64,000 bases of DNA from an uncultured archaeon (GTDB lineage Archaea > Asgardarchaeota > Lokiarchaeia > Sigyniarchaeales > SOKP01). Shown piece after piece: positions 11,102 through 57,738 of the stretch; within the stretch, counting starts at the first letter, position 1; each line of letters starts with the position of its first letter. The notes beneath the pieces were generated by a model that had not been told where the DNA came from, ran no database searches, and worked only from the letters and a program-made list of their open reading frames with translations. The stretch lies in the NCBI GenBank assembly GCA_964486045.1, contig CAZALK010000001.1:456242-520241 (forward strand). The letters are read 5' to 3'. Made by a program: the position numbers and the translations under genes.

Positions 11102-14032
11102 TTATTTTTTTCTTTTTAATTTGCTTCTTAATTTTCTGTTAATCTTACTCCTATCATTTATTGTATTTTTGCCCTGAGTTACCTTCCACATTAACGCATT
11201 CTGATTAAATCTGACTTTTTTAAATTGCCATCTATTATTTAAAAAATTAAAAATAATATATATACCAACACAAATTGTAATAAACCAAAACCACGTCTCT
11301 AAATTAACAGTAATAGGCTTTGGAATCTCTGGAACTTCCGTTTTGTAAAAACCAAATTCAATAACTTTGTAATCATCTGTTAATTTTACATTTTTTTCTT
11401 TAATTAGATCTCCATTATTTTCATAAGCTGAAATTGTATAATTGACATCTTTTATCATTCTCATCTGAATTCCAGCGGTCGATCCTACGATAAACGAAAT
11501 ATTCGAACTACCTCTTTCTATTTCAATTTTAATCGTTCTATTAAAATTATTTACAACAATCAACGTATAAACTTCAACTTGTATATCATATTCATAAATT
11601 CCTGAAGTATTAATATTGCTATCGTACAATGTATATCCAAAATAGTCCTTAACTACTAAATTTATTATCATATTTTCAATTCTGTTAAATCCAAAATCAG
11701 TACGATTATTGTCTATATAGAATTTAAATGTATTTTCATATATTCCTAATCCATCATAATTATAAATTCCAAAAAATACATTTTTAGGATATTCTGGTGT
11801 TATGGTTGGTGTTCCAAACGATTCTATATGACTATTATCTGTCAGATTTATAATTCTCGAATCATATAACGTTGCATTTGTGAAGTAAATAGTTATATTA
11901 TATTCTACGTTTGGAAGGAATCTGTAAGTTAACCCAAATTGTTTTGGAAGTATCTGTTCCATCCACACACCCGAACCTACTTGAGTAATGTTTACGATAA
12001 TATCTTCATAAGTAAATTGATTTAAAATAATTAAAGAATAAATTTCTATAAAAATATTATATTCAGAATAAGCAGAAGCATCAATAGTGTCATTTGCTAA
12101 TGTATTATTAAAGAAATCCAAGATTAAAAGATTTGCTGTTTCAGATTGTATTATATTTCGACCAAAATCTTTTCTTACACCATTTATATAAAATCTCACT
12201 AAATCATGGTCTATTCCTAATCCATCATAAGTAAATAATCCAAAATAAATTTGGTAATATGTAGTGTTTATAGATATTATTTTATGTGTTGTAAATTCAA
12301 ATTCTAAACTTCTTGGATAATTATCCTCATGATTTGTATAATTTAAAATATAATTCCCTGTAGCAATGCTAAATTCAATAATTTCAATAGGGAAAATATT
12401 GCCTGATTTTTCAATACCAGAATTATTGTTTTTTAATATATAATCAGCATATTCACTTGCCTCATTTTTTATTTTAAGAGAATATACATTTAGAGTAATA
12501 TCTATAAAAGTCTCTTCATAACTATCATAATCTTTTATTAAAATATCAAAAGAGTCATAGATTTTAAATTCTATTAATGTATCATCATCTACATATAAAA
12601 TATGACTTGATAACCGTTCATTAGTGTAGGTAAAATTATCTAAAGTGTAATTAATATATGTAGTAAATAAATTAAAATCTAAATATTCATTATTAGAATC
12701 ATAATACGTTAAATAAACAATTTCAGAATCAATTCTTTCATAAATTAAAGTCTGTAATGTAGATGAAGTTGTTATATATTTAGTTTCCATTAATTCATTT
12801 CTTTCATAGATTTCTACTGTATAGTTATGTGGATAACCAATATCTAATTGTTTTCTTCCATTTGGTTCTACATAATAAACTATAGTTTCAGCATAACCTC
12901 TTTTAATTACTATTGAATCCACAATTAAATTCTTAGTATCATCAAATATTCCAGTAAATTCTAATTGGTCAACCGATATATTGGAGCCTATTGTAAAGGT
13001 TTTAGTTCTTGTGGAGAAATCTCCATTACCCTGACTTGAAAGAATATAACTTGCTTGTTGAATACTATTATTTCTTAGATTTAAATCAATTCTATTTGTT
13101 GAGCTTGTATTAAATTTAACTTCAATTTTATCTCCTTCCTGTAAAGTTAAATTAAGATTATTTAGACTTCTTAAAGTTAAGGTTTCTGTTTCATTAGTTT
13201 GCATATAAATCAGATTATTTCCTTGGTAGTTTTTTGAAATATGCCAAGCAGATATATTTCCTTCAAAATTTACGATAATTTGAGAAGCTTCAATTGTAAA
13301 AGTAAAATCTCTAAGATGTTTTGTAGTTATTTCAAGTGTGTTAATATCAGCATCAGTTAAATTTAAATCTGACCATCCTCCTGCGTATTTCCACACAAAA
13401 CTAGTAGAAGAAAACCAAGAATATATAGGATTTGTTGTTCCTGGAAGATTACCCGATACCTCTAATTGATTTGGTCCTGCATAAATTGTTTTATGATAAA
13501 TTGGATATATTATCTGAATAACCTTTCCTGAATCATAAGCAGATAAATTTATATTATCAAATGAATATATATCTGTTTGACCAGTTGTACTACTTATTAC
13601 TCGATTTCCATCAAATCCTACAGTACTTGGATAAATTACACCATCATCTAACTCATCGGCATGAACAGCAGGTGCAACAGGAATATCCCATTCATCAGAT
13701 ATATCTCCATCAGGTTCTATAACTATTGTTTCTTCAGTATATTCAGCGACACCAGAATAATTCATAAAAAGATAAGTAGGTGGTGCACCAATAAAATACC
13801 TTTCACTAACTCCATACAAACTCCAATTATCTGAACCTGCATCAAATGTTTCATTATAAAGATAATTATAACCAGCTGTTTCATTTATAAAATCCCATCG
13901 TGTAGATAAATCAGATTCACTAATGATTTCTATATTAGGAGTTTGTGCAAAGCCGTTACTAATAAAACTTGAAAAAGATAATATAAAAATAAATAAACAT
14001 AAACTTGAGCTTATTAACTTCTTATTTTTCAT
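11102..14032 (-). CDS. Large type-I membrane-anchored surface protein (putative viral spike/adhesin)
   Basis: Signal peptide, 976 aa beta-rich N/T/Y-rich ectodomain with internal repeats (FG.(F/Y).YDGLGI....(R/K)FYI...R.DFG x2), many NxS/T sites, C-terminal TM and basic tail. Confidence 0.65.
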   Translation of the reverse strand: MKNKKLISSSLCLFIFILSFSSFISNGFAQTPNIEIISESDLSTRWDFINETAGYNYLYNETFDAGSDNWSLYGVSERYFIGAPPTYLFMNYSGVAEYTEETIVIEPDGDISDEWDIPVAPAVHADELDDGVIYPSTVGFDGNRVISSTTGQTDIYSFDNINLSAYDSGKVIQIIYPIYHKTIYAGPNQLEVSGNLPGTTNPIYSWFSSTSFVWKYAGGWSDLNLTDADINTLEITTKHLRDFTFTIEASQIIVNFEGNISAWHISKNYQGNNLIYMQTNETETLTLRSLNNLNLTLQEGDKIEVKFNTSSTNRIDLNLRNNSIQQASYILSSQGNGDFSTRTKTFTIGSNISVDQLEFTGIFDDTKNLIVDSIVIKRGYAETIVYYVEPNGRKQLDIGYPHNYTVEIYERNELMETKYITTSSTLQTLIYERIDSEIVYLTYYDSNNEYLDFNLFTTYINYTLDNFTYTNERLSSHILYVDDDTLIEFKIYDSFDILIKDYDSYEETFIDITLNVYSLKIKNEASEYADYILKNNNSGIEKSGNIFPIEIIEFSIATGNYILNYTNHEDNYPRSLEFEFTTHKIISINTTYYQIYFGLFTYDGLGIDHDLVRFYINGVRKDFGRNIIQSETANLLILDFFNNTLANDTIDASAYSEYNIFIEIYSLIILNQFTYEDIIVNITQVGSGVWMEQILPKQFGLTYRFLPNVEYNITIYFTNATLYDSRIINLTDNSHIESFGTPTITPEYPKNVFFGIYNYDGLGIYENTFKFYIDNNRTDFGFNRIENMIINLVVKDYFGYTLYDSNINTSGIYEYDIQVEVYTLIVVNNFNRTIKIEIERGSSNISFIVGSTAGIQMRMIKDVNYTISAYENNGDLIKEKNVKLTDDYKVIEFGFYKTEVPEIPKPITVNLETWFWFITICVGIYIIFNFLNNRWQFKKVRFNQNALMWKVTQGKNTINDRSKINRKLRSKLKRKK

Positions 14033-14654: not shown

Positions 14655-15953
14655 TTATTTTTTAATATTATCAAATTCTGCTTCTATTGCTTCCTTATAA
14701 GCTTCAGGAGGAATTCTCATATTTTTTTTAATCCATTTCAATTCCTTATCAAACTGTACTCTAATATCTCTCAATTCACTTAGAAAATTATTTTGTAATT
14801 TATGTAATTCTTCAGATATCCTCTCATTTCTATCTTTTATTTCTTTATTTTCTTGTCTTAGCTCCTGAACTTCATATGGTTGAATTATAGATTCAACACC
14901 CATCTGTTCTATATCTTCTTCATTAATAATATTTCCACATTTCCAACAGAATAGATTTTCTTGACGATTTTCTGCTTCACAAATCCTACATTGTTTTGCT
15001 TCTTTTAGTTCAGGTTTAGAAATTTCAACAACATTATTAGTCATGATATCAATTATATCTTTATCAACTAAATGGAAATATATTTTTGCCATAGTAGAAT
15101 CAGCAGACCAACCAGCAAACTTTCTAATTTGAGCTTCATTTAACTTAGTTCTTGCTAATTCAGTTAATCTTGAATGCCTAAATAGATGAGGATTAAGTTT
15201 CCTTCCTTTCCATTGTTTTGGATATTTTTTAATCAATTTTTTTAATATAAAAATCAAGTAGTTATTCACAGTAGTATTATTTTTAAAATCAAACAGCTTA
15301 TTTTCTGGTTCAAAATCATTAATTCCAGTATATTCTTTTATGTATGATGTGGCTTCAATTACAGGAACATCCCTTCCATAAGTTTTTGATTCTGATATTT
15401 TTAAAATAGTATATCCACGATTAAACCTAATATCCTTCTCTCTAATGTTAAGAGCTTCATCTATTCTTAATGCTCCTTCATATAAAATCATAAATAATGT
15501 TTTATATTTAAGATTACTGTATTTTAAAATTTGCTCTAAATCTTCTCTTGTTATTAAATCAATTTTGCTAAGTTTTTTGGTTTTTCCATTCATTTTACTT
15601 GGAAATAAATTAAATAAATCATTTCTTTCAGAATATTTTAGATATTTTTTAATTCTATTAACATGCATTTTTTGTGTGCCATTTGAAAGGTTATTCCACC
15701 AATCAGAATCAAGAAAATCTTTAATATCCTGTTCAGTAAGCAAACCTATATTATTATGTTTTAAATTAAAGTCTTTATTTTTTGCTCTCCAGCTTTCATT
15801 TCTCTGCTTATCAGTTTCAAATAATTTACTAATAGATATTAAATGGTTTAAAATTGTTCCATCAGTAGAACCTTTTAACTCTTTGTAGTAATAGTTTTCT
15901 ATATTATTATCCTTAGATTTTAATCTTTCCAAATATTTATTATAACTATCCAT
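14655..15953 (-). CDS. Tyrosine recombinase/integrase with C-terminal zinc ribbon and coiled coil
   Basis: GALRIDE (R), SKT (K), HLFRHSR (HxxR), AGWS, KIYFHL (Y); CRICE...CWKCG. Confidence 0.92.
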   Translation of the reverse strand: MDSYNKYLERLKSKDNNIENYYYKELKGSTDGTILNHLISISKLFETDKQRNESWRAKNKDFNLKHNNIGLLTEQDIKDFLDSDWWNNLSNGTQKMHVNRIKKYLKYSERNDLFNLFPSKMNGKTKKLSKIDLITREDLEQILKYSNLKYKTLFMILYEGALRIDEALNIREKDIRFNRGYTILKISESKTYGRDVPVIEATSYIKEYTGINDFEPENKLFDFKNNTTVNNYLIFILKKLIKKYPKQWKGRKLNPHLFRHSRLTELARTKLNEAQIRKFAGWSADSTMAKIYFHLVDKDIIDIMTNNVVEISKPELKEAKQCRICEAENRQENLFCWKCGNIINEEDIEQMGVESIIQPYEVQELRQENKEIKDRNERISEELHKLQNNFLSELRDIRVQFDKELKWIKKNMRIPPEAYKEAIEAEFDNIKK

Positions 15954-17291: not shown

Positions 17292-17990
17292 ATGGCACAA
17301 ATAGAAATTAGAAAACACCCAAAATTTTATAACGTTTTTATTTCAGGGTCCAAAGAAAAATTGAGACTCTATACAAGGAATAGTGACAGGGGAAATAGAG
17401 TTTATGGAGAAAGATTAATTCAATATAGAGAAAATGAATACAGGGAATGGGATCCATTTCGGAGTAAATTAGCAGCCATAATTTTAGAAAACCCTCTCAA
17501 AAATTTTTTATCGGCTGACATAACTTGTTTATACTTAGGAGCTTCTTCTGGAACTACCATTTCTCACCTTTCCGATATACTAACAAGTGGAATTATATTT
17601 GGTATTGAATTTGCAGAAAGAAGCATTAGACAGTTAATCCAAAATACATCCCGAAGGAAAAATATTATCCCAATATTTGCTGATGCTCGTTATCCAGACA
17701 ATTATGCGAAATCAATATTTTCTACCATGGATATAATTTACCAGGATATATCTCAACCCAACCAAGCAGAAATTGCTTTAAATAATTGTAATTATTATCT
17801 AAGTGATAATGGTTTATTAATCCTAGCAGTTAAATCTCAATCTATCAATAGTATTCAGAAATCGGAATATGTCTATGCCCAAGAAAAGACGATTCTGGAA
17901 GAAGGAGGTTATGAAGTAATTGAGAGTGTTAATATTCATAAATATGCGGCAAATCATAGTGTGTTATTAGTTAAAAAAAGGCACGGTTAG
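17292..17990 (+). CDS. flpA: Fibrillarin-like rRNA/tRNA 2'-O-methyltransferase
   Basis: VYGE, YREWDPFRSKLAA, LYLGASSGTT, YQDISQPNQA; follows nop5. Confidence 0.96.
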   Translation: MAQIEIRKHPKFYNVFISGSKEKLRLYTRNSDRGNRVYGERLIQYRENEYREWDPFRSKLAAIILENPLKNFLSADITCLYLGASSGTTISHLSDILTSGIIFGIEFAERSIRQLIQNTSRRKNIIPIFADARYPDNYAKSIFSTMDIIYQDISQPNQAEIALNNCNYYLSDNGLLILAVKSQSINSIQKSEYVYAQEKTILEEGGYEVIESVNIHKYAANHSVLLVKKRHG

Positions 17991-18676
17991 AAAAAATCAT
18001 TAATTTTTTTGTTTACTAATTCTTCATTTACTAAATTCTTTGTAGTTGCCCAAGTTTTCCTCGCAATGGAGGGTACTTTCTGGTTTTTTCTAATCCAATC
18101 CCGAAGAAAGTTAATAGTTTTTTTATCAGAAGGGTATCCCGAGCCGAAGTCTCCATATTTTTCCTTTAGTTCATCAATTAATGAGTCTCTTTTATCTTTG
18201 GCAATAATTGAAGCTGCAGATACTATAGGAAATAGGTCATCAGCTTTATGCTTTGAAATAATTTCTTTTGGATTATAATTTAAAAGATTGAGGATAGATT
18301 GTGCGAATCTTGCTTCATTTACATCAACAGCGTCAATATAGATAGAATCAGGTTTTAACTCCCTAATAATTTCAGCCATTTTCAGCTCCTCCAGTTTATT
18401 CAGAGTAATTCTTTTTTCTTCTCTTTTATCAATTTCATCGGGAAGAACAACAATAACTTTAAAAGAATAACAGGACTCCTTAATTAACTTTGCTAATATG
18501 CTCCTCCTTTTAGTAGTTAATTTTTTAGAGTCTTTTACACCGATTTTTGTTAAATAAGATAAGCTGGATTCCTTAAAACATACACCACATAAAACAAGAG
18601 GTCCAATTACGGGGCCTTTTGGCATATAATCCAATAAGGATTATATTCTACCAGCCTCGTCAATACCACAAATCAT
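17987..18676 (-). CDS. rnhB: Ribonuclease HII; spliced CDS (exons 18676-18648 and 18617-17987), 219 aa
   Basis: ATG at 18676 gives MICGIDEAGR. After a 30-nt insertion the same frame continues GPVIGPLV...GVKDSKKL...KAD...VSAASIIAK...GSGYPSD. The ORF-track start (18634) lies inside the insertion and lacks the catalytic DE. Confidence 0.93.
18618..18647 (-). other. Putative 30-nt BHB mRNA intron in rnhB
   Basis: mRNA: GAGGC UGGU AG^A AUAUAAUCC UUAUU GGAUUAUAU GCCA AA^A GGCCCC; in-frame UAA. Removal restores GIDEAGRGPVIG. Confidence 0.88.
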
Positions 18677-18689
18677 TTTTTATTTCTCC

Positions 18690-19691
18690 TTAAGAATCTT
18701 GGATGAGATCAATGAATTCTTCTTCATCATTCACTTCTTCCAAATTTCTTATTTTTACAATGTGTATATCGTTTCTTTTTGGAATTCCGGGTATTCTAAT
18801 ATTATTATCAATGATATAAAGCGCATTTTTATGAAATAAATCATTAAACATCTTCATGCTATTAAAATTCATCTCATTGATGGTACTCTGCTCTTCGGAA
18901 ATATTTGAAAAAAGTGGATAAAATCCGCCCTTTTCAATTTGTTCAAGCGAGGAAAATAATGATAATTTGAAAGGAACTGTACGCTTTTTATACCAATAAG
19001 AAGACAATCCTATGTCATCAATAATTGTTTTTATGTGGGATTCAAATTCACTTAACTCTTTTTCTTCAGAAATTTCTTTATCAGATATCTCGTTTTTAAT
19101 ATTCCATTTAAAAACGTTGATTTTTTTGAATATAGCATTATTTTCCAAAATACTTAAAATTTTTTCGGCCATTTTTTCAGATGGGCACATACTTTCATTT
19201 TCGTATGCACTTACAATTCTCTTTGCTACTCCTAATTGTTCTGATAACTCTTTTCTTGTAATAGATTGTTCTTCTCTTATTTGTTTCATCAAATTTCCAT
19301 TCAAATATATGACACCACCCCCTCTGCGTGCAAGAATATGGGGAAAAATATTATTAGTAAGAATCTTCTCAAAAGTTTTAAAAGTTATGAATGGTAAACC
19401 GTTCCTTATATATATTGTATTAACTTCTAACTTTTGATACCTGTTTCTAATTCCTATTAATAACGGTTTGGATTTTAATATGAGAGAAAATGATTTGATG
19501 TCTTGGATTATGTCCGGATTTATATTATCAATATTGGGAAAAACTTTCACGCTAAAAACTGAATCGTCTTTTTTGACTAATAAATCAAAACAAAATTTGC
19601 TCTTTTTAGTAGCAAAATTTCCTAACACAAAGGTCTCAAAATTAGCTTTTTTCAGCAAATTGTTAATTTTTTCAATTACAGTGTCAGTCAT
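18690..19691 (-). CDS. Archaeal HTH-type transcriptional regulator (nuclease-like N-domain plus XRE HTH)
   Basis: CFDLLVK...VKVFPNID, ARRGG, ITRKELSEQLGVAKRIVSAYE. Confidence 0.85.
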   Translation of the reverse strand: MTDTVIEKINNLLKKANFETFVLGNFATKKSKFCFDLLVKKDDSVFSVKVFPNIDNINPDIIQDIKSFSLILKSKPLLIGIRNRYQKLEVNTIYIRNGLPFITFKTFEKILTNNIFPHILARRGGGVIYLNGNLMKQIREEQSITRKELSEQLGVAKRIVSAYENESMCPSEKMAEKILSILENNAIFKKINVFKWNIKNEISDKEISEEKELSEFESHIKTIIDDIGLSSYWYKKRTVPFKLSLFSSLEQIEKGGFYPLFSNISEEQSTINEMNFNSMKMFNDLFHKNALYIIDNNIRIPGIPKRNDIHIVKIRNLEEVNDEEEFIDLIQDS

Positions 19692-51496: not shown

Positions 51497-54379
51497 ATGA
51501 GCTTCAAATCGAAAGGTCCGAAATCACATCCCAGCCACAGCCCTAAAGCTAAACCCGAACCGCCTAAACCCACCCCTGAAAAAGATTCAAAACCATCTAA
51601 CCAAAAACCGAACCAAAAGCCAAAACATAAACCTAATCAAAATTCTAAACCTCAACCAGGAAAAATTCGACAGGATAAAAATCAAAAACCAAAAACTAAC
51701 CCAAGTGAAAAATCTAAAAATAATATTAGCCCACCCCTCCTAGACCTGAATAACAATGCTAAAAAGATCATTACTAACCTCGCCTCTCAGCCAATTAAAG
51801 AACATACCACACCTCCTACAAAATCTCCCCTAGAACCGAATAAAGAATCTAAAAACAGAATAATCCGACCCGTTTTCAAACCGAATATGATTCAAAATGG
51901 TAATAATAGAATTAAACGCCCTAACTTCAAACCGGATCAACATAAAGGATCTAAAAATATCATCTCCCGACTAATATTCGATCCAAATAAACCTTCCTCT
52001 AATAAAAATAAAATTTCTCGGCCAAATTTCATACCTAATGATGAAGCTAAGAATAAAATCATAAAATATACAATTGAATCAACAGGAAAACCTAAAAACA
52101 GAATTAATAGATACCAAATTGACTCGGGTAAAAACCAACAATATAATAATAAAATAAGGAGGATTCCATTCAAGCCAAATGATGAAATTAAAAACAATAC
52201 CGAAAGTACACCCGCCAGACCTAAGCATATCAAAAATAATAGTCAACCAGCAATAATAAAACCAACTACTACACCCCCCCAAATAACCAAAAACAAGATT
52301 ATTAAGACTGAACCCCTCACTCACCCGCAAAAAGAAACCAGGAAAAATATAGTTAAATCCAGATGGGCATTCCTTAACTACGATGCTCAAGGAAACCTAC
52401 TCTCGCGTGAAGTCAAAATGCAAAATGCTGTCAACCACTTCAACCGAGAAATCCTTCCCGAATTAATGAAAGATCCCGCCATCGCTAAAAAAATTAAAAA
52501 ATTACACACAGTCGGTTCAAACGACCTAGTTCGTAAAAATTATAGCGGATTCCTCAACGCCTTGAGCAGAGAACATAAAATTAAATGGAGTGAACTCAAA
52601 TCTACTATAAGTCCTATTAAAATTACCACACATTTAACCATGCTGAAAGGGAAAACCTCGCTCAAGCCTAAACATAAGACTAAATCCAAACCAGATCTTA
52701 ATTATGACTACTTTTCCATGAATTATGATGATAACCTAAATCCGCTTAACCGTGAACAAAAACTTCAAAAGGCAATCACAGTCTACAATCAAAAAATTTT
52801 ACCTGATCTCCAAAATGTTCCAGAAATTAAAGAAAAACTCGAAAATGGAAAGAGTGTAAGCTACCGAGACCTTGAAAATCAAGGGTATGGGAATTTTTAC
52901 GAGGCTTTAAATAGAAATGGCGTGAAGATCAGATGGAACGAATTCAAACAAGAAGCTGGCTATAAAGTTAACATTGATCACGAAAAATACAAGTTTCTTA
53001 ACTACGATCAGAATGGCAATAGAATTAACCCTGAGGAAAAATTAGTCATTGCCCTTGACCACTACAATAATATTATCGTACCAGACTTGATGAAAATCCC
53101 TGAAATCAAACAAAAGATTGAATCTGGATATCCTCCTGCCCTTGATGATTTGATTAAATACGGACATCCGGGATTCATCGCACCCCTCTCTCAAAAAGAA
53201 CCAAAAATCCATTATAACACCTTAATTGAAGCAGCAGGCCTTAAACCAAATGTGGATCACAATAAATATCGATTCTTAAATTACAATGAACAAGATACTC
53301 CTCATTCTTATCAAGACAAAATGGAAATTGCCAAGGAATTCTTCAGTAATATCATTGTCCCAAAGCTGATCGAGAAAGATTTAATTAGACCAGGGGAAAC
53401 TCCAGGTCTCAGGGAAATGGTCAAGGGTGGATTCAGTGGATTTTTTCCTTCTCTCGCCTTTAAAGAACAGAAAATTGATTACAATGATCTAATTCAAGCA
53501 GTAGGTCTCGACCCAAATATTACTCATGGTCGTTGGGATTTCATCAAATATGACCATAACGGAAATATTCTCTCGAAGGAAGAAAAACTCGCCAACGCTG
53601 CTGATTATTTTAACACAATTGTTTACCCCGATTTAATTAACAAGGATGCTGTTAAGCAAGGAGAAGCCCCGACTTCCCTTGATCTACAGGATTATAAGCA
53701 TGAGGATTTTCTCAGTGCCTTGCGTGGTAAAGAACCTAAAGTTTCATTTAACCGTTTAATTGAGCATGCGGGATTCACCCCACATGATTTTAATACTTTA
53801 TCTACAATAGGCACTAATTTTCATTGGACCGCAGAAAAAATTTTTTTGGAACATACCAGAAATCAAAATTGCACTTCTTTCTATGAAGTTAGAGGAAATG
53901 GTGACAATTCAATTGTAGTTGATAAAAATTTTAAAAATTTATCCAATGGTGCGGATCTTCTTGCTCAATTACGTCCAAATATTAAGATTATTAATTTTGA
54001 TTATTTTCTCAGTAACTCAGAAAAAAGTAAAACTGATCATAGCCAAAGAAACTACCAAGGTGAAGAAGTAGCGCTTTGTCTTATCCCTCTAAATGCTAAT
54101 GAACCGCAAGACATAGATCAAGACATTCCTCATAGTAATAATGTTTTAGTTTTAAATCCTAAAGGTTTCGCCGCTTTCCTGGGATATAAAGATGGAATTT
54201 ACGATAAATTTATGGAAAGTGTCCAATTAGCGAGAATAGCCATGTACGATGAGGAGGCAAAAGAGATATTATATGAAATGAGAGTAGAAGCTTATGATGC
54301 CCTAAAAAGCAATGAAAACGATTTAAATTACTCGACAAAAGAATTTAAAAAGTTCCGCGATACACAAAAAGAAACTTAA
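51497..54379 (+). CDS. Low-complexity leader + five ~90-aa repeats + putative PD-(D/E)xK nuclease domain
   Basis: K/P/N-rich N-terminus with KNRI.RP.F.PN mini-repeats; 5x (F)LNYD..GN....EK...A..(F/Y)N..I.P.L...G...F..AL; C-terminal GTNFH...YE...GD...FDY. Confidence 0.7.
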   Translation: MSFKSKGPKSHPSHSPKAKPEPPKPTPEKDSKPSNQKPNQKPKHKPNQNSKPQPGKIRQDKNQKPKTNPSEKSKNNISPPLLDLNNNAKKIITNLASQPIKEHTTPPTKSPLEPNKESKNRIIRPVFKPNMIQNGNNRIKRPNFKPDQHKGSKNIISRLIFDPNKPSSNKNKISRPNFIPNDEAKNKIIKYTIESTGKPKNRINRYQIDSGKNQQYNNKIRRIPFKPNDEIKNNTESTPARPKHIKNNSQPAIIKPTTTPPQITKNKIIKTEPLTHPQKETRKNIVKSRWAFLNYDAQGNLLSREVKMQNAVNHFNREILPELMKDPAIAKKIKKLHTVGSNDLVRKNYSGFLNALSREHKIKWSELKSTISPIKITTHLTMLKGKTSLKPKHKTKSKPDLNYDYFSMNYDDNLNPLNREQKLQKAITVYNQKILPDLQNVPEIKEKLENGKSVSYRDLENQGYGNFYEALNRNGVKIRWNEFKQEAGYKVNIDHEKYKFLNYDQNGNRINPEEKLVIALDHYNNIIVPDLMKIPEIKQKIESGYPPALDDLIKYGHPGFIAPLSQKEPKIHYNTLIEAAGLKPNVDHNKYRFLNYNEQDTPHSYQDKMEIAKEFFSNIIVPKLIEKDLIRPGETPGLREMVKGGFSGFFPSLAFKEQKIDYNDLIQAVGLDPNITHGRWDFIKYDHNGNILSKEEKLANAADYFNTIVYPDLINKDAVKQGEAPTSLDLQDYKHEDFLSALRGKEPKVSFNRLIEHAGFTPHDFNTLSTIGTNFHWTAEKIFLEHTRNQNCTSFYEVRGNGDNSIVVDKNFKNLSNGADLLAQLRPNIKIINFDYFLSNSEKSKTDHSQRNYQGEEVALCLIPLNANEPQDIDQDIPHSNNVLVLNPKGFAAFLGYKDGIYDKFMESVQLARIAMYDEEAKEILYEMRVEAYDALKSNENDLNYSTKEFKKFRDTQKET

Positions 54380-54570: not shown

Positions 54571-55356
54571 ATTCTCCATAATTTTTACTTGATACACCAG
54601 CATATCTCCCCGGAGATTCTCCGTTGAGTGTTAACGGGTATCTGTTTAATACATAGAAATTATGGCACCATCGAATTCAATCAGGATTTAGTGAGTGGCT
54701 TTCTAACCGCCCTTAAGGACTTTAGTGTTGAGTTTTCCAAGGGTAGCGGAGAACTCAAGGTTATAGGTTGTAGATAGATTTTATCTATTAATAAAGACAT
54801 GCAGATATTTTATCTGCTTTTAGTCTTTAAGGAGGGTGTCTTATGTACAGCTGCTGCTGATAAAAATGATGATGCCAAGATTACCCATAAAGCACTAACT
54901 GATATTATTGACAAATTCGTAGGAAAGTTCGGTGATCAGCTTGAGAATTGGTCTGGTGATGTACGTATTTTTCGAGACTTTGAGAGCATAATCGACGATG
55001 TCCTGAAAGTAGGTAAGGTTGCGGAGATCCAGCTAAAGATCCCGATACTCAAAATTTTCAAGAAGGATTTCATCAAGTCGCAGAAGCGCATTGCGAAGAA
55101 GGGGCTGGTGCTTTCGGAGGCGGATTTGCGAGAGGTGAAGGATGTGAAACCGGAGTGGGCTGCCAAGCGCTTACCGAAACAGGTTATAGCGACCGGAATT
55201 TTAGATGCGGTGGAGTTTGATATCGCGCATTTAGCGGACGGATTTCACACGCTTTCGGATATCGCGGAAGAGTCGGGTCACCCAGTGCCAGAGATTCAGA
55301 AGATTATGGACAATTTAGACAAGTTAGAGCTTCTTTCGTTTGTAGAGATAAAGTAA
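54571..55356 (+). CDS. Longin-like domain protein with C-terminal wHTH; spliced CDS (54571-54604, 54635-54766, 54797-55356), 241 aa, ATT start
   Basis: AGGAGGTG RBS at 54557-54564. Spliced product MLHNFYLIHQHTGICLIHRNYGTIEFNQDLVSGFLTALKDFSVEFSKGSGELKVIDMQIFYLLLVFKEGVLCTAAAD matches the Asgard longin-like pattern; DGFHTLSDIAEESG is wHTH-like. Confidence 0.82.
54605..54634 (+). other. Putative 30-nt BHB mRNA intron 1 in longin-like gene
   Basis: GAUAC(A)CC AGCA UA^U CUC CC CGGAG AUU CUCCG UU GAG UGUU AA^C GG GUAUC; in-frame UGA at 54625-54627. Confidence 0.83.
54767..54796 (+). other. Putative 30-nt BHB mRNA intron 2 in longin-like gene
   Basis: G UUAU AG^G UUGUAGAUA GAUUU UAUCUAUUA AUAA AG^A C; in-frame UAG at 54775-54777. 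Removal gives LKVIDMQ. Confidence 0.83.
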
Positions 55357-55812: not shown

Positions 55813-57285
55813 ATGAATGTTAATAAAGTTGAGGAGAATATTTATGAGATTCCTCCAAAAACATTGATGACCCGGATTCAAGGCAATATAGAGAAATTCC
55901 AAATGAACGTTCCTGTTAGAATTTATGCTAATAGCTATATATTAGAAAAAATCAAGGGAGATCGTACATTAGATCAAATAAGTAATGTTGCATGCTTACC
56001 AGGGGTACAAAAACACGTTATTGCATTATCCGATGCACATCAAGGATATGGTTTCTGTATTGGTGGAGTTGCTGGAACTGAAGCTGAGACAGGAATGATT
56101 TCTCCAGGAGGAGTTGGTTATGATATAAACTGCGGTGTGAGATTATTAAGGACAAATTTATTTCTCACCGATATTAAAAGTCTTTTACCTGAATTATTAG
56201 AGAATATTTATAGAAGTATCCCTTCTGGATTAGGGTCAAAAGGTAAATTAAATATTAGTTATTCTGACTTAGATAATGTTTTAAATAATGGAGTGAAATG
56301 GGCATTAGATAAGGGGTATGCTATTGATAAGGATGTTGACCATCTAGAGGAAAACGGGTGTCTAAAAAATGCGGATGCCACCTTAGTTTCACAGAAGGCA
56401 AAACAAAGAGGCATTAAGCAACTTGGTTCTTTAGGAAGCGGGAATCATTTTCTTGAAATACAAAGAGTAGATCAAATTTACAATAAAGCTATTGCGAAAA
56501 AATTAGGAATTTTCGAGAAAAACCAGATTAATATAATGGTTCATACGGGAAGTAGAGCATTAGGTCATCAAGTTTGTACAGATAGCCTGCGTACTATTGA
56601 AAAGGCGATGAAAACATATAAAATTAAAGTACCTGATAGGGAACTAGCCTGTGTACCAGCAGATACACCTGAAGCAGAAAATTACCTACAACAGATGGCA
56701 TGTGCTGCTAATTTTGGTTTTACAAATCGTCAGTTGATAACTCATTGGTTGAGAGAATCTTTTCAAAATGCATTTAATAAAGACATCGATGCATTAGATA
56801 TGCATATGATTTATGGTGTATGCCATAACATTCTAAAAATAGAAGAACATGATGTGAATGGAAAAAGAATGAATTTAAACATCCATCGTAAAGGTGCAAC
56901 AAGAGCTTTCCCTCCAGGACACCCTGATATACCTCAAGATTATAAAGACATTGGTCAACCTGTCTTGATTCCTGGAACCATGGGATCGGGTTCATACTTA
57001 TGTGTTGGTAAACCAAGGGCAATGGAGCTTTCTTTCGGATCAACCGCTCATGGCTCAGGTCGTTTAATGTCTCGATCGAAAGCCGTTAAACAATATTGGG
57101 GTGCTAAAGTAAAAGAGGATCTGGGAAAGAAAGGAATTTTAGTAAAAAGCGCTTCATTGAAGGTCCTCGCAGAAGAAAGCCCAGGTGCTTATAAAGATAT
57201 TGATCAAGTTGTTCAAGTTAGTCATAATCTTGGAATAGTTGAAAAAATCGTAAGATTTGTACCGGTAGGGGTTGTTAAAGGATAA
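55813..57285 (+). CDS. rtcB: RNA-splicing ligase RtcB
   Basis: DAHQGYGFCIGG, PGGVGYDINCG, GSGNHFLE, HTGSR, HN, HRKGAT, PGTMG, HGSGR, EESPGAYK. Confidence 0.97.
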   Translation: MNVNKVEENIYEIPPKTLMTRIQGNIEKFQMNVPVRIYANSYILEKIKGDRTLDQISNVACLPGVQKHVIALSDAHQGYGFCIGGVAGTEAETGMISPGGVGYDINCGVRLLRTNLFLTDIKSLLPELLENIYRSIPSGLGSKGKLNISYSDLDNVLNNGVKWALDKGYAIDKDVDHLEENGCLKNADATLVSQKAKQRGIKQLGSLGSGNHFLEIQRVDQIYNKAIAKKLGIFEKNQINIMVHTGSRALGHQVCTDSLRTIEKAMKTYKIKVPDRELACVPADTPEAENYLQQMACAANFGFTNRQLITHWLRESFQNAFNKDIDALDMHMIYGVCHNILKIEEHDVNGKRMNLNIHRKGATRAFPPGHPDIPQDYKDIGQPVLIPGTMGSGSYLCVGKPRAMELSFGSTAHGSGRLMSRSKAVKQYWGAKVKEDLGKKGILVKSASLKVLAEESPGAYKDIDQVVQVSHNLGIVEKIVRFVPVGVVKG

Positions 57286-57300
57286 TAATCAAAAAAAATA

Positions 57301-57738
57301 TTAAATATCAAAGACAATTCTAATCTCGACCTTGTCCTTTTTTTCTTCAATATTCATGAAAGAATAAGTAATTGCTTTAACTTCTGTCCCAATTTCATGT
57401 TTATTTCTATCAAATTGTTCTCCTTTCGCTATTGCAAATAATTTAAAATTTTCTTCAATCTTCAGTATTGATTTAACAGATACATAACTAAAAACTAAAT
57501 CTTCTACATCAAATATAAAGAGAAATTCAGATAGGAAGTCAAAGCATAGTGCATATTTATCTTCGGAGATAATTTCAATCTTTTTCTCGATTTTAGGCAT
57601 AACTTTTTTCAAGTTAGGAGTAATAGTAGTCATTAAGCTTAAAGCTGTTTGAGAAAACGCGTCTTCTAGGTTTTTTCCCCAACTTTTGACACTTACATCA
57701 GCAGTGTGGTCCATAAACTCAAATCCGGAGCCATTCAT
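57301..57738 (-). CDS. Archease
   Basis: FEFMDHTADV, GTEVKAITY, terminal VFDI; convergent with rtcB. Confidence 0.95.
   Translation of the reverse strand: MNGSGFEFMDHTADVSVKSWGKNLEDAFSQTALSLMTTITPNLKKVMPKIEKKIEIISEDKYALCFDFLSEFLFIFDVEDLVFSYVSVKSILKIEENFKLFAIAKGEQFDRNKHEIGTEVKAITYSFMNIEEKKDKVEIRIVFDI

What the first reader, a model, noticed from the sequence alone, without database searches (positions are those of the whole stretch)
18618..18647. 30-nt BHB intron splitting the catalytic DEAGR|GP motif of RNase HII
The minus strand reads ATG ATT TGT GGT ATT GAC GAG GCT GGT AGA [ATA TAA TCC TTA TTG GAT TAT ATG CCA AAA] GGC CCC GTA ATT GGA. The fold has central helix UGGU/GCCA, bulges AGA and AAA, and a perfect 9-bp inner stem AUAUAAUCC/GGAUUAUAU. 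The outer helix ACGAGGC/GGCCCCGU is imperfect. Canonical cuts AG^A and AA^A rejoin as GGU AGA GGC, giving the invariant GIDEAGRGPVIG. The remaining ~205 codons are intact, which argues against a dead gene. Without splicing only an 11-aa peptide would be made, so RNase HII output would depend on EndA activity (inference).
Basis: partly seen in the sequence, partly recalled or inferred. Interest (0 to 1): 0.93.

Follow-up and report, generated by a model that had tools for sequence, protein, structure and literature searches.

The report
tRNA-type intron splits Asgard RNase HII
The only RNase HII gene of this Asgard (Lokiarchaeia) archaeon is interrupted inside its active-site motif by a 30-base hairpin shaped like an archaeal tRNA intron, kept at the same spot with compensating mutations in dozens of relatives and in Bathyarchaeia, so the enzyme can very probably be made only after the tRNA-splicing machinery cuts and rejoins the mRNA.

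Summary
Confirmed. Window 18647-18618 (minus strand) is a 30-nt stop-containing insert in the genome's only rnhB. Removing it at the canonical bulge-helix-bulge (BHB) cuts gives a 219-aa RNase HII. The insert sits at the same site in 65 distinct sequences from eight genera of the family (28-31 nt) and in 13 loci from a Bathyarchaeia genome and its relatives (19-32 nt, mostly frame-breaking). Central helix and stem covary; a near-identical strain shows a double compensatory change. The canonical cut restores Arg/Lys in 78/78 copies, while bypass-type matched codons occur in 3/78. Exon 2 is under purifying selection. The genome encodes a two-subunit EndA, RtcB and archease. A blind homology scan found four more 30-nt BHB inserts in three other genes, so this is one of a genome-wide set. 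In the papers I could search, only cbf5 has such an intron in an archaeal coding sequence. This scan noted the same rnhB intron before on other DNA (44 notes, at least 39 genomes). Splicing is inferred at about 0.92; regulation is untested.

The parts
18686..18689 (-). Shine-Dalgarno-like GGAG, 9 nt before the rnhB start and directly after the stop of the upstream HTH regulator gene
   Evidence: sequence; upstream ORF ends at 18690
18648..18676 (-). rnhB exon 1 (29 nt): MICGIDEAG plus the first two bases of the Arg codon; holds the catalytic Asp-Glu pair and the 5' strand of the central helix (18653-18650)
   Evidence: residue roles from PMC3025331 and alignment to solved RNase HII
18618..18647 (-). 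30-nt BHB intron: stem arms 18646-18638 and 18632-18624, loop 18637-18633, 3' helix strand 18623-18620; in-frame TAA at 18643-18641; cuts AG^A (18648/18647) and AA^A (18618/18617)
18623..18625 (-). in-frame ATG inside the intron, used by gene callers as the start of a truncated 212-aa protein; a by-product of the stem and helix, not conserved
17987..18617 (-). rnhB exon 2: third base of the Arg codon, then 209 codons and the stop; intact, under purifying selection
   Evidence: (TIGR00729, 205 bits)
55813..57285 (+). rtcB, the RNA ligase expected to join the exons (trans-acting; intact)
57301..57738 (-). archease, the RtcB cofactor (trans-acting)

Best explanation
This is a true EndA-type intron in the rnhB mRNA. 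The pre-mRNA folds a 4-bp helix between exon 1 and the intron end, flanked by two 3-nt bulges and closed by the 9-bp intron hairpin (shown by sequence and covariation). The two-subunit splicing endonuclease cuts after the second base of each bulge, and RtcB with archease joins the exons to rebuild the Arg codon of the GRG motif, giving a 219-aa RNase HII (inferred from tRNA, rRNA and cbf5 splicing). Unspliced mRNA stops after 11 codons, so no enzyme with a 10-residue insert in the active site is made (shown for the frame; that the stop is selected for is inferred). It is one of a set of same-size introns in this genome's coding sequences.
For: Only rnhB in a 99%-complete genome. Insert at the same site in 30/30 best genus loci and 65 distinct family sequences of 28-31 nt. 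In 61 aligned copies 90.8% of cells pair, 64 cells show changes on both sides, 0/500 shuffles reach either, and slid controls pair 25-47%. The Gly wobble base of exon 1 tracks its intron partner in 65/66 (UG 35, GC 14, CG 10, UA 6); GGA is used in 0/66 intron-bearing versus 17/32 intronless copies. A strain differing at 8/660 exon bases differs at 5/30 intron bases, all structure-keeping, one a double compensatory change. Same site in 13 loci among a Bathyarchaeia genome and its relatives, 10 of 12 distinct ones not a multiple of three, helix 4/4 in 12 of 13. Only the canonical register restores DEAG[RK]G[PS] in 66/66; the +1 register fails in three copies with AG^U. EndA alpha matches A. pernix EndA best (E 1e-33) with Tyr, His, Lys and the loop Lys equivalent to K44 kept; a second, His-less paralog is present. 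RtcB and archease are present. Four more 30-nt BHB inserts in other genes, in more than one codon phase.
Against: The outer exon helix is weak, only 47/66 copies have a 4/4 central helix, often with several G-U pairs, and RNAalifold preferred an exon-exon pairing to the central helix. The sequences are related, so the shuffle counts are not probabilities.
Confidence: 0.92

Rival explanations
1. The ribosome skips the hairpin (translational bypass as in T4 gene 60 or yeast mitochondrial byps) and the RNA is never cut.
For: A stop codon early in a hairpin and a fixed length near 30 nt resemble bypass elements (own knowledge). No spliced RNA was seen.
Against: Bypass needs matching take-off and landing codons: they match in 3/78 copies for the Arg codon and 0/78 for the Gly codon. 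Three copies read AG-U into the insert, so Arg can only be built by joining inside the codon. Bypass does not explain covariation of an exon base with the far end of the insert in BHB geometry.
Confidence: 0.02
2. A different nuclease-ligase pair (not EndA, for example an IRE1-like or unknown hairpin nuclease) removes the insert from the RNA.
For: The exon-side helix is poor and the fixed 9-bp stem plus 5-nt loop is more uniform than tRNA introns in this genome.
Against: Both cut sites fall exactly after the second base of 3-nt bulges around a 4-bp helix, the EndA rule (PMC2738675). The EndA here is of the type that cuts relaxed motifs (PMC5829648). Bathyarchaeia copies vary in stem and loop but keep the BHB.
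Confidence: 0.03
3. No processing: the protein is made by stop-codon readthrough, or by restarting at the in-intron AUG to give a truncated 212-aa protein.
For: 61 of 65 family copies are in frame; an in-frame ATG, GTG or TTG lies in the intron tail in 42 of 65; public annotation calls that protein.
Against: Four family copies and 10 of 12 distinct Bathyarchaeia copies break the frame; all three stop codons and double stops occur. The truncated protein lacks the Asp-Glu whose loss abolishes activity in archaeal RNase HII (PMC3025331). The start codon is missing in 23 of 65 family copies and in all Bathyarchaeia copies.
Confidence: 0.02
4. Dead gene or assembly artefact.
For: An in-frame stop at codon 12. 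An RNase HI-like domain elsewhere in the genome could cover part of the function.
Against: Same site in many independent assemblies, dN/dS 0.07-0.23 in exon 2, conserved exon 1 and ribosome-binding site.
Confidence: 0.01

Closest known systems
cbf5 pre-mRNA intron of Desulfurococcales and Sulfolobales (Watanabe 2002; Yoshinari 2006; Yokobori 2009, PMC2738675)
   Same: Short intron (16-44 nt there) in a coding sequence, relaxed BHB at the borders, cuts after the second bulge base, splits a codon of the active-site motif, two-subunit EndA in the host, patchy presence with precise loss.
   Different: Different gene and phyla (Asgard Lokiarchaeia and Bathyarchaeia). Not a lone case in its genome: at least four genes carry five same-size introns. 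Every in-frame copy has a stop (61/61), whereas some cbf5 introns keep the frame. cbf5 splicing is shown by cDNA; this one is not.
BHB intron in the 5' UTR of Haloferax HVO_1309 (PMC7714728)
   Same: mRNA substrate of EndA with a BHB motif.
   Different: Lies in the untranslated leader, so it does not gate the reading frame.
Non-canonical tRNA introns of Asgard archaea (bioRxiv 10.64898/2026.10.13.758758)
   Same: Same motif and enzyme type, same phylum, repeated gains.
   Different: That study covers tRNA genes; a term search found no mention of mRNA or cbf5. The rnhB intron has no second copy in this genome.
XBP1/HAC1 non-spliceosomal mRNA intron of eukaryotes
   Same: Short mRNA intron cut by a protein nuclease and sealed by a tRNA ligase (RtcB in animals; own knowledge); splicing switches on the protein.
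   Different: IRE1 cuts two separate stem-loops, not a BHB, and that splicing is known to be regulated. No homology is claimed.

Membership tests
Archaeal BHB (EndA-spliced) intron | 4-bp central helix between exon and intron end | tested here: met
   4/4 in the window; 92% of cells paired in 61 copies, with compensatory changes; 4/4 in 12 of 13 Bathyarchaeia loci
Archaeal BHB (EndA-spliced) intron | Two 3-nt bulges on opposite strands, cut after the second base | tested here: met
   Only this register restores the motif in 66/66; Arg/Lys in 78/78
Archaeal BHB (EndA-spliced) intron | Intron-side helix (h') closing the motif | tested here: met
   9/9 in the window; 89% paired, 8 of 9 pairs with changes on both sides
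Archaeal BHB (EndA-spliced) intron | Exon-exon outer helix (h) of a strict motif | tested here: inconclusive
   One invariant C-G then G.G in 65/66; alternative exon pairing predicted. Fits the relaxed HBh' form, which two-subunit EndAs cut (PMC5829648)
Archaeal BHB (EndA-spliced) intron | Host encodes a splicing endonuclease able to cut relaxed motifs, and an RNA ligase | tested here: met
   Two EndA paralogs, catalytic Tyr/His/Lys and loop Lys in one; RtcB; archease
Archaeal BHB (EndA-spliced) intron | Spliced RNA observed, or cleavage by EndA shown | not testable with these tools
Translational bypass element (T4 gene 60, byps) | Matching take-off and landing codons | tested here: not met
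   3/78 and 0/78
Homing-endonuclease-mobilised intron | Endonuclease gene inside or beside the intron | tested here: not met
   Intron too short to code; no LAGLIDADG motif in ORFs of 20 flanking loci and no endonuclease Pfam hit in 8 neighbours scanned (one had no hit at all); the genome's one LAGLIDADG_3 hit is on another contig
Group I / group II self-splicing intron or known Rfam element | Ribozyme core of hundreds of bases; Rfam match | tested here: not met
   30 nt; no Rfam match near threshold
Archaeal RNase HII (TIGR00729) | Profile score above cut-off; DEAGRG motif and downstream Asp residues | tested here: met
   205 bits versus cut-off 123; motif restored on splicing, downstream IDA and KADD motifs present

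The most novel reading that the evidence does not exclude
This Lokiarchaeia family runs routine, genome-wide mRNA splicing with its tRNA endonuclease and RtcB. Some tens of coding genes carry roughly 30-nt BHB introns that are kept stop-containing so that unspliced messages are not translated through. rnhB is the most widely shared site, reaching into Bathyarchaeia either by descent from a common ancestor or by repeated gain at the same GGN-AG^R-GG target.
Probability: 0.7. Interest if true: 0.9.

Novelty: new variant of a known kind. Interest (0 to 1): 0.8.

Why it matters
In the papers I could search, protein-catalysed splicing inside an archaeal coding sequence is documented for one gene, cbf5. 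This case extends it to a genome-maintenance enzyme in Asgard archaea, the closest prokaryotic relatives of eukaryotes, and to Bathyarchaeia. It also appears to be one of many in its genome. That bears on how common mRNA introns were before the spliceosome and on the background of RtcB-sealed mRNA splicing such as XBP1/HAC1. It gives a small, cheap test substrate (60-nt RNA plus recombinant EndA). In practice, public annotation of these genomes calls N-terminally truncated RNase HII proteins that lack two catalytic residues, and other genes are probably mis-called in the same way.

Tried and rejected
Two exact junction patterns gave no match in metagenome contigs. No intact protein lay above 92% identity to an interrupted copy. 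A motif-only BHB scan of the genome did not separate real from shuffled DNA well and showed no 30-nt peak, so I dropped it for a homology-based scan. A search for frame-shifting introns in that sample gave no convincing case. A neighbouring homing endonuclease, suggested by earlier notes for other archaea, was not found at these loci. No second copy of the intron, in tRNA genes or elsewhere, was found by short-word BLAST. Sigma-70 promoter and terminator scans were uninformative for an archaeon. The careful tree did not finish; the quick tree was used, unrooted, so gain and loss cannot be told apart. Phylum-wide search listed stops only in family f1 among the rows shown, but 96 weaker matches were not listed, so absence elsewhere in Asgard is not shown.

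Full report
Observation. On the minus strand an ATG at 18676 follows a GGAG ribosome-binding site and opens MICGIDEAGR, then Ile and TAA. The frame resumes at GPVIGP and runs to the stop at 17987. Deleting 18647-18618 gives a 219-aa protein; without deletion 11 aa are made. The downstream part scores 205 bits on the archaeal RNase HII model. It is the only rnhB in the 5.18-Mb, 99%-complete assembly. The insert is 1 nt, a 9-bp stem with a 5-nt loop, the 3' strand of a 4-bp helix with exon 1, and 2 nt. Only 1 of 200,000 shuffles matched all 13 pairs. The exon-exon outer helix is weak, and the energy minimum draws one bulge as 4 nt. The closest named relatives are Promethearchaeota/Lokiarchaeota, so the host is a Lokiarchaeia-type Asgard archaeon.

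What is split. Exon 1 holds the Asp-Glu pair, and the junction falls inside the Arg codon of the GRG motif. In RNase H2 structures the Asp-Glu pair binds the metals and GRG reads the ribonucleotide 2'-OH; mutating the Asp or Glu abolishes activity in archaeal enzymes (PMC3025331). Solved archaeal RNase HII chains read through this motif without an insert. Gene callers start at an AUG inside the intron and report 212-213-aa proteins without these residues.

Conservation in the family. All 30 best loci of the genus carry the insert at the same base. Wider sampling gave 65 distinct copies in genera g1, g19, g21, g22, g23, g27, g28 and g29, of 30 nt (61), 29 (2), 28 and 31 nt, alongside 32 exactly intronless copies. 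On 61 aligned copies 90.8% of cells pair and 64 show changes on both sides; no shuffle of 500 reached these, and slid partners pair 25-47%. The synonymous Gly base in exon 1 follows its intron partner in 65 of 66 copies, and GGA, the commonest codon in intronless copies (17/32), never occurs with the intron. A near-identical strain (L231) differs at 8 of 660 exon bases but 5 of 30 intron bases: one T-A to A-T double change, one U-A to U-G, two loop bases. Exon 2 dN/dS is 0.07-0.23 in intron-bearing pairs and 0.11-0.25 in intronless pairs. All 61 in-frame introns hold a stop in the reading frame, against 0.66 expected per shuffled intron and 31 and 9 in the other two frames; TAA, TAG and TGA are all used, at four codon positions. 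These copies share ancestry, so selection for the stop is suggested, not proven.

Beyond Asgard. A contig titled Bathyarchaeia (L063) has a 26-nt insert at the same base with a perfect helix. Among 51 loci from that genome and its relatives, chosen partly because they looked interrupted, 13 have an insert at the same base. The 12 distinct ones are 19-32 nt, 10 break the frame, sequences are unlike the Asgard ones, and the helix is 4/4 in 12 of 13 with matched changes (AGGG/CCCU, GGGG/CCCC, CGGG/CCCG, UGGG/CCCA). The taxonomy of these relatives rests on the tool's kinship to that genome, not on names. On an exon-2 protein tree the intron needs 21 changes, at least 7 forced by well-supported branches. 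Intronless copies nest among intron-bearing ones. The tree is a quick, unrooted one and cannot say whether this is loss, gain or both.

Mechanism. The canonical cut after the second base of each bulge yields Arg or Lys in 78 of 78 copies. It is the only register that works in all 66 tested; three copies read AG-U into the insert, so a between-codon skip would give Ser. Matching take-off and landing codons, needed for ribosomal bypass, occur in 3 of 78. Frame-breaking lengths exclude readthrough. The genome has two EndA paralogs. One matches the A. pernix catalytic subunit best and keeps Y125, H133, K164 and the loop residue K44 equivalents (PMC3241643); the other lacks the His. Asgard EndAs are reported as this two-subunit, relaxed-specificity type (PMC5829648). 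RtcB and archease lie in the window itself. Shown: fold, covariation, frame logic, enzymes present. Inferred: cutting by EndA, joining by RtcB, and any regulation.

Not a lone case. Prompted by earlier scan notes on this genome, I compared 621 six-frame ORFs from 400 kb of two relatives with this genome, blind to BHB. Of 338 with an orthologue, every coding-strand in-frame insertion with a stop was 30 nt long with a 4/4 helix and a 7-9/9 stem: rnhB, a SelD/PurM-like gene, a thiolase, and two in the gene just upstream of rtcB in this window. The antisense shadow of the rnhB insert scored 1/4 on the helix, and none of the stop-free insertions had both a full helix and such a long stem. Cuts fall in all three codon phases, though some can slide. 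Four genes in 338 suggests some tens per genome, a rough figure.

Comparison with what is known. The closest system is the cbf5 intron of Crenarchaeota, which also splits an active-site codon and is cut by a two-subunit EndA (PMC2738675). A 2020 study names cbf5 as the only other known mRNA case besides a Haloferax 5'-UTR intron (PMC7714728). A 2026 preprint on Asgard introns deals with tRNA genes. Nine literature searches on this question found no report of an rnhB intron or of coding-sequence BHB introns in Asgard or Bathyarchaeia; the library lacks most subscription journals. This scan's own unchecked notes hold the same rnhB intron in at least 39 genomes. Two of them tie it to a neighbouring homing endonuclease in other archaea; I found none at these loci.

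Limits. No RNA evidence was obtained. Many genus copies have a central helix rich in G-U pairs, and RNAalifold preferred another pairing, so splicing efficiency may vary.

Verdict. A real, conserved BHB intron in an Asgard RNase HII coding sequence, very probably spliced by EndA and RtcB (0.92). It is a new variant of the kind known from cbf5, notable for the shared site across two phyla and for being one of a set. Interest 0.8.

Noticed in passing
window 54605-54634 and 54767-54796 (+): Two further 30-nt stop-containing BHB inserts split the gene directly upstream of rtcB (about 245 codons when joined, C-terminal winged helix); an orthologue in a relative lacks both.
   Followed up: partly
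G000:C1:759271 (+) and G000:C3:186175 (+): 30-nt BHB inserts with stops in a SelD/PurM-like gene and a thiolase; same geometry of 9-bp stem and 5-nt loop.
   Followed up: partly
L231:1530-1559: In a near-identical strain the intron differs at 17% of bases versus 1.2% in exons (dS 0.05), all structure-keeping; the intron may change faster than synonymous sites.
   Followed up: no
L009-L030 (part of genus g1): Many intron-bearing copies have Ser instead of Pro two codons after the junction (GRGS); the C-to-U change adds an A-U pair to the weak exon-exon helix (25/66 versus 2/32 intronless).
   Followed up: partly
window 55813-57738: rtcB and archease are adjacent and convergent; neither appears interrupted, nor do the two endA genes.
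   Followed up: partly
window 14655-15953 (-) and 11102-14032 (-): A tyrosine recombinase next to a large secreted-looking protein, just upstream of nop5-fibrillarin; possibly the edge of an integrated element.
   Followed up: no
window 51497-54379 (+): A 960-aa protein with a low-complexity Pro/Lys/Asn N-terminus and repeated C-terminal units, unidentified.
   Followed up: no
G000 whole genome: ARAGORN finds only 31 tRNAs, many mis-typed, consistent with heavily interrupted tRNA genes; a tRNA-Sec is present on C15.
   Followed up: no
L135 (G022): rnhB 5' region has an assembly gap and extra sequence after the intron; left out of the counts.
   Followed up: no
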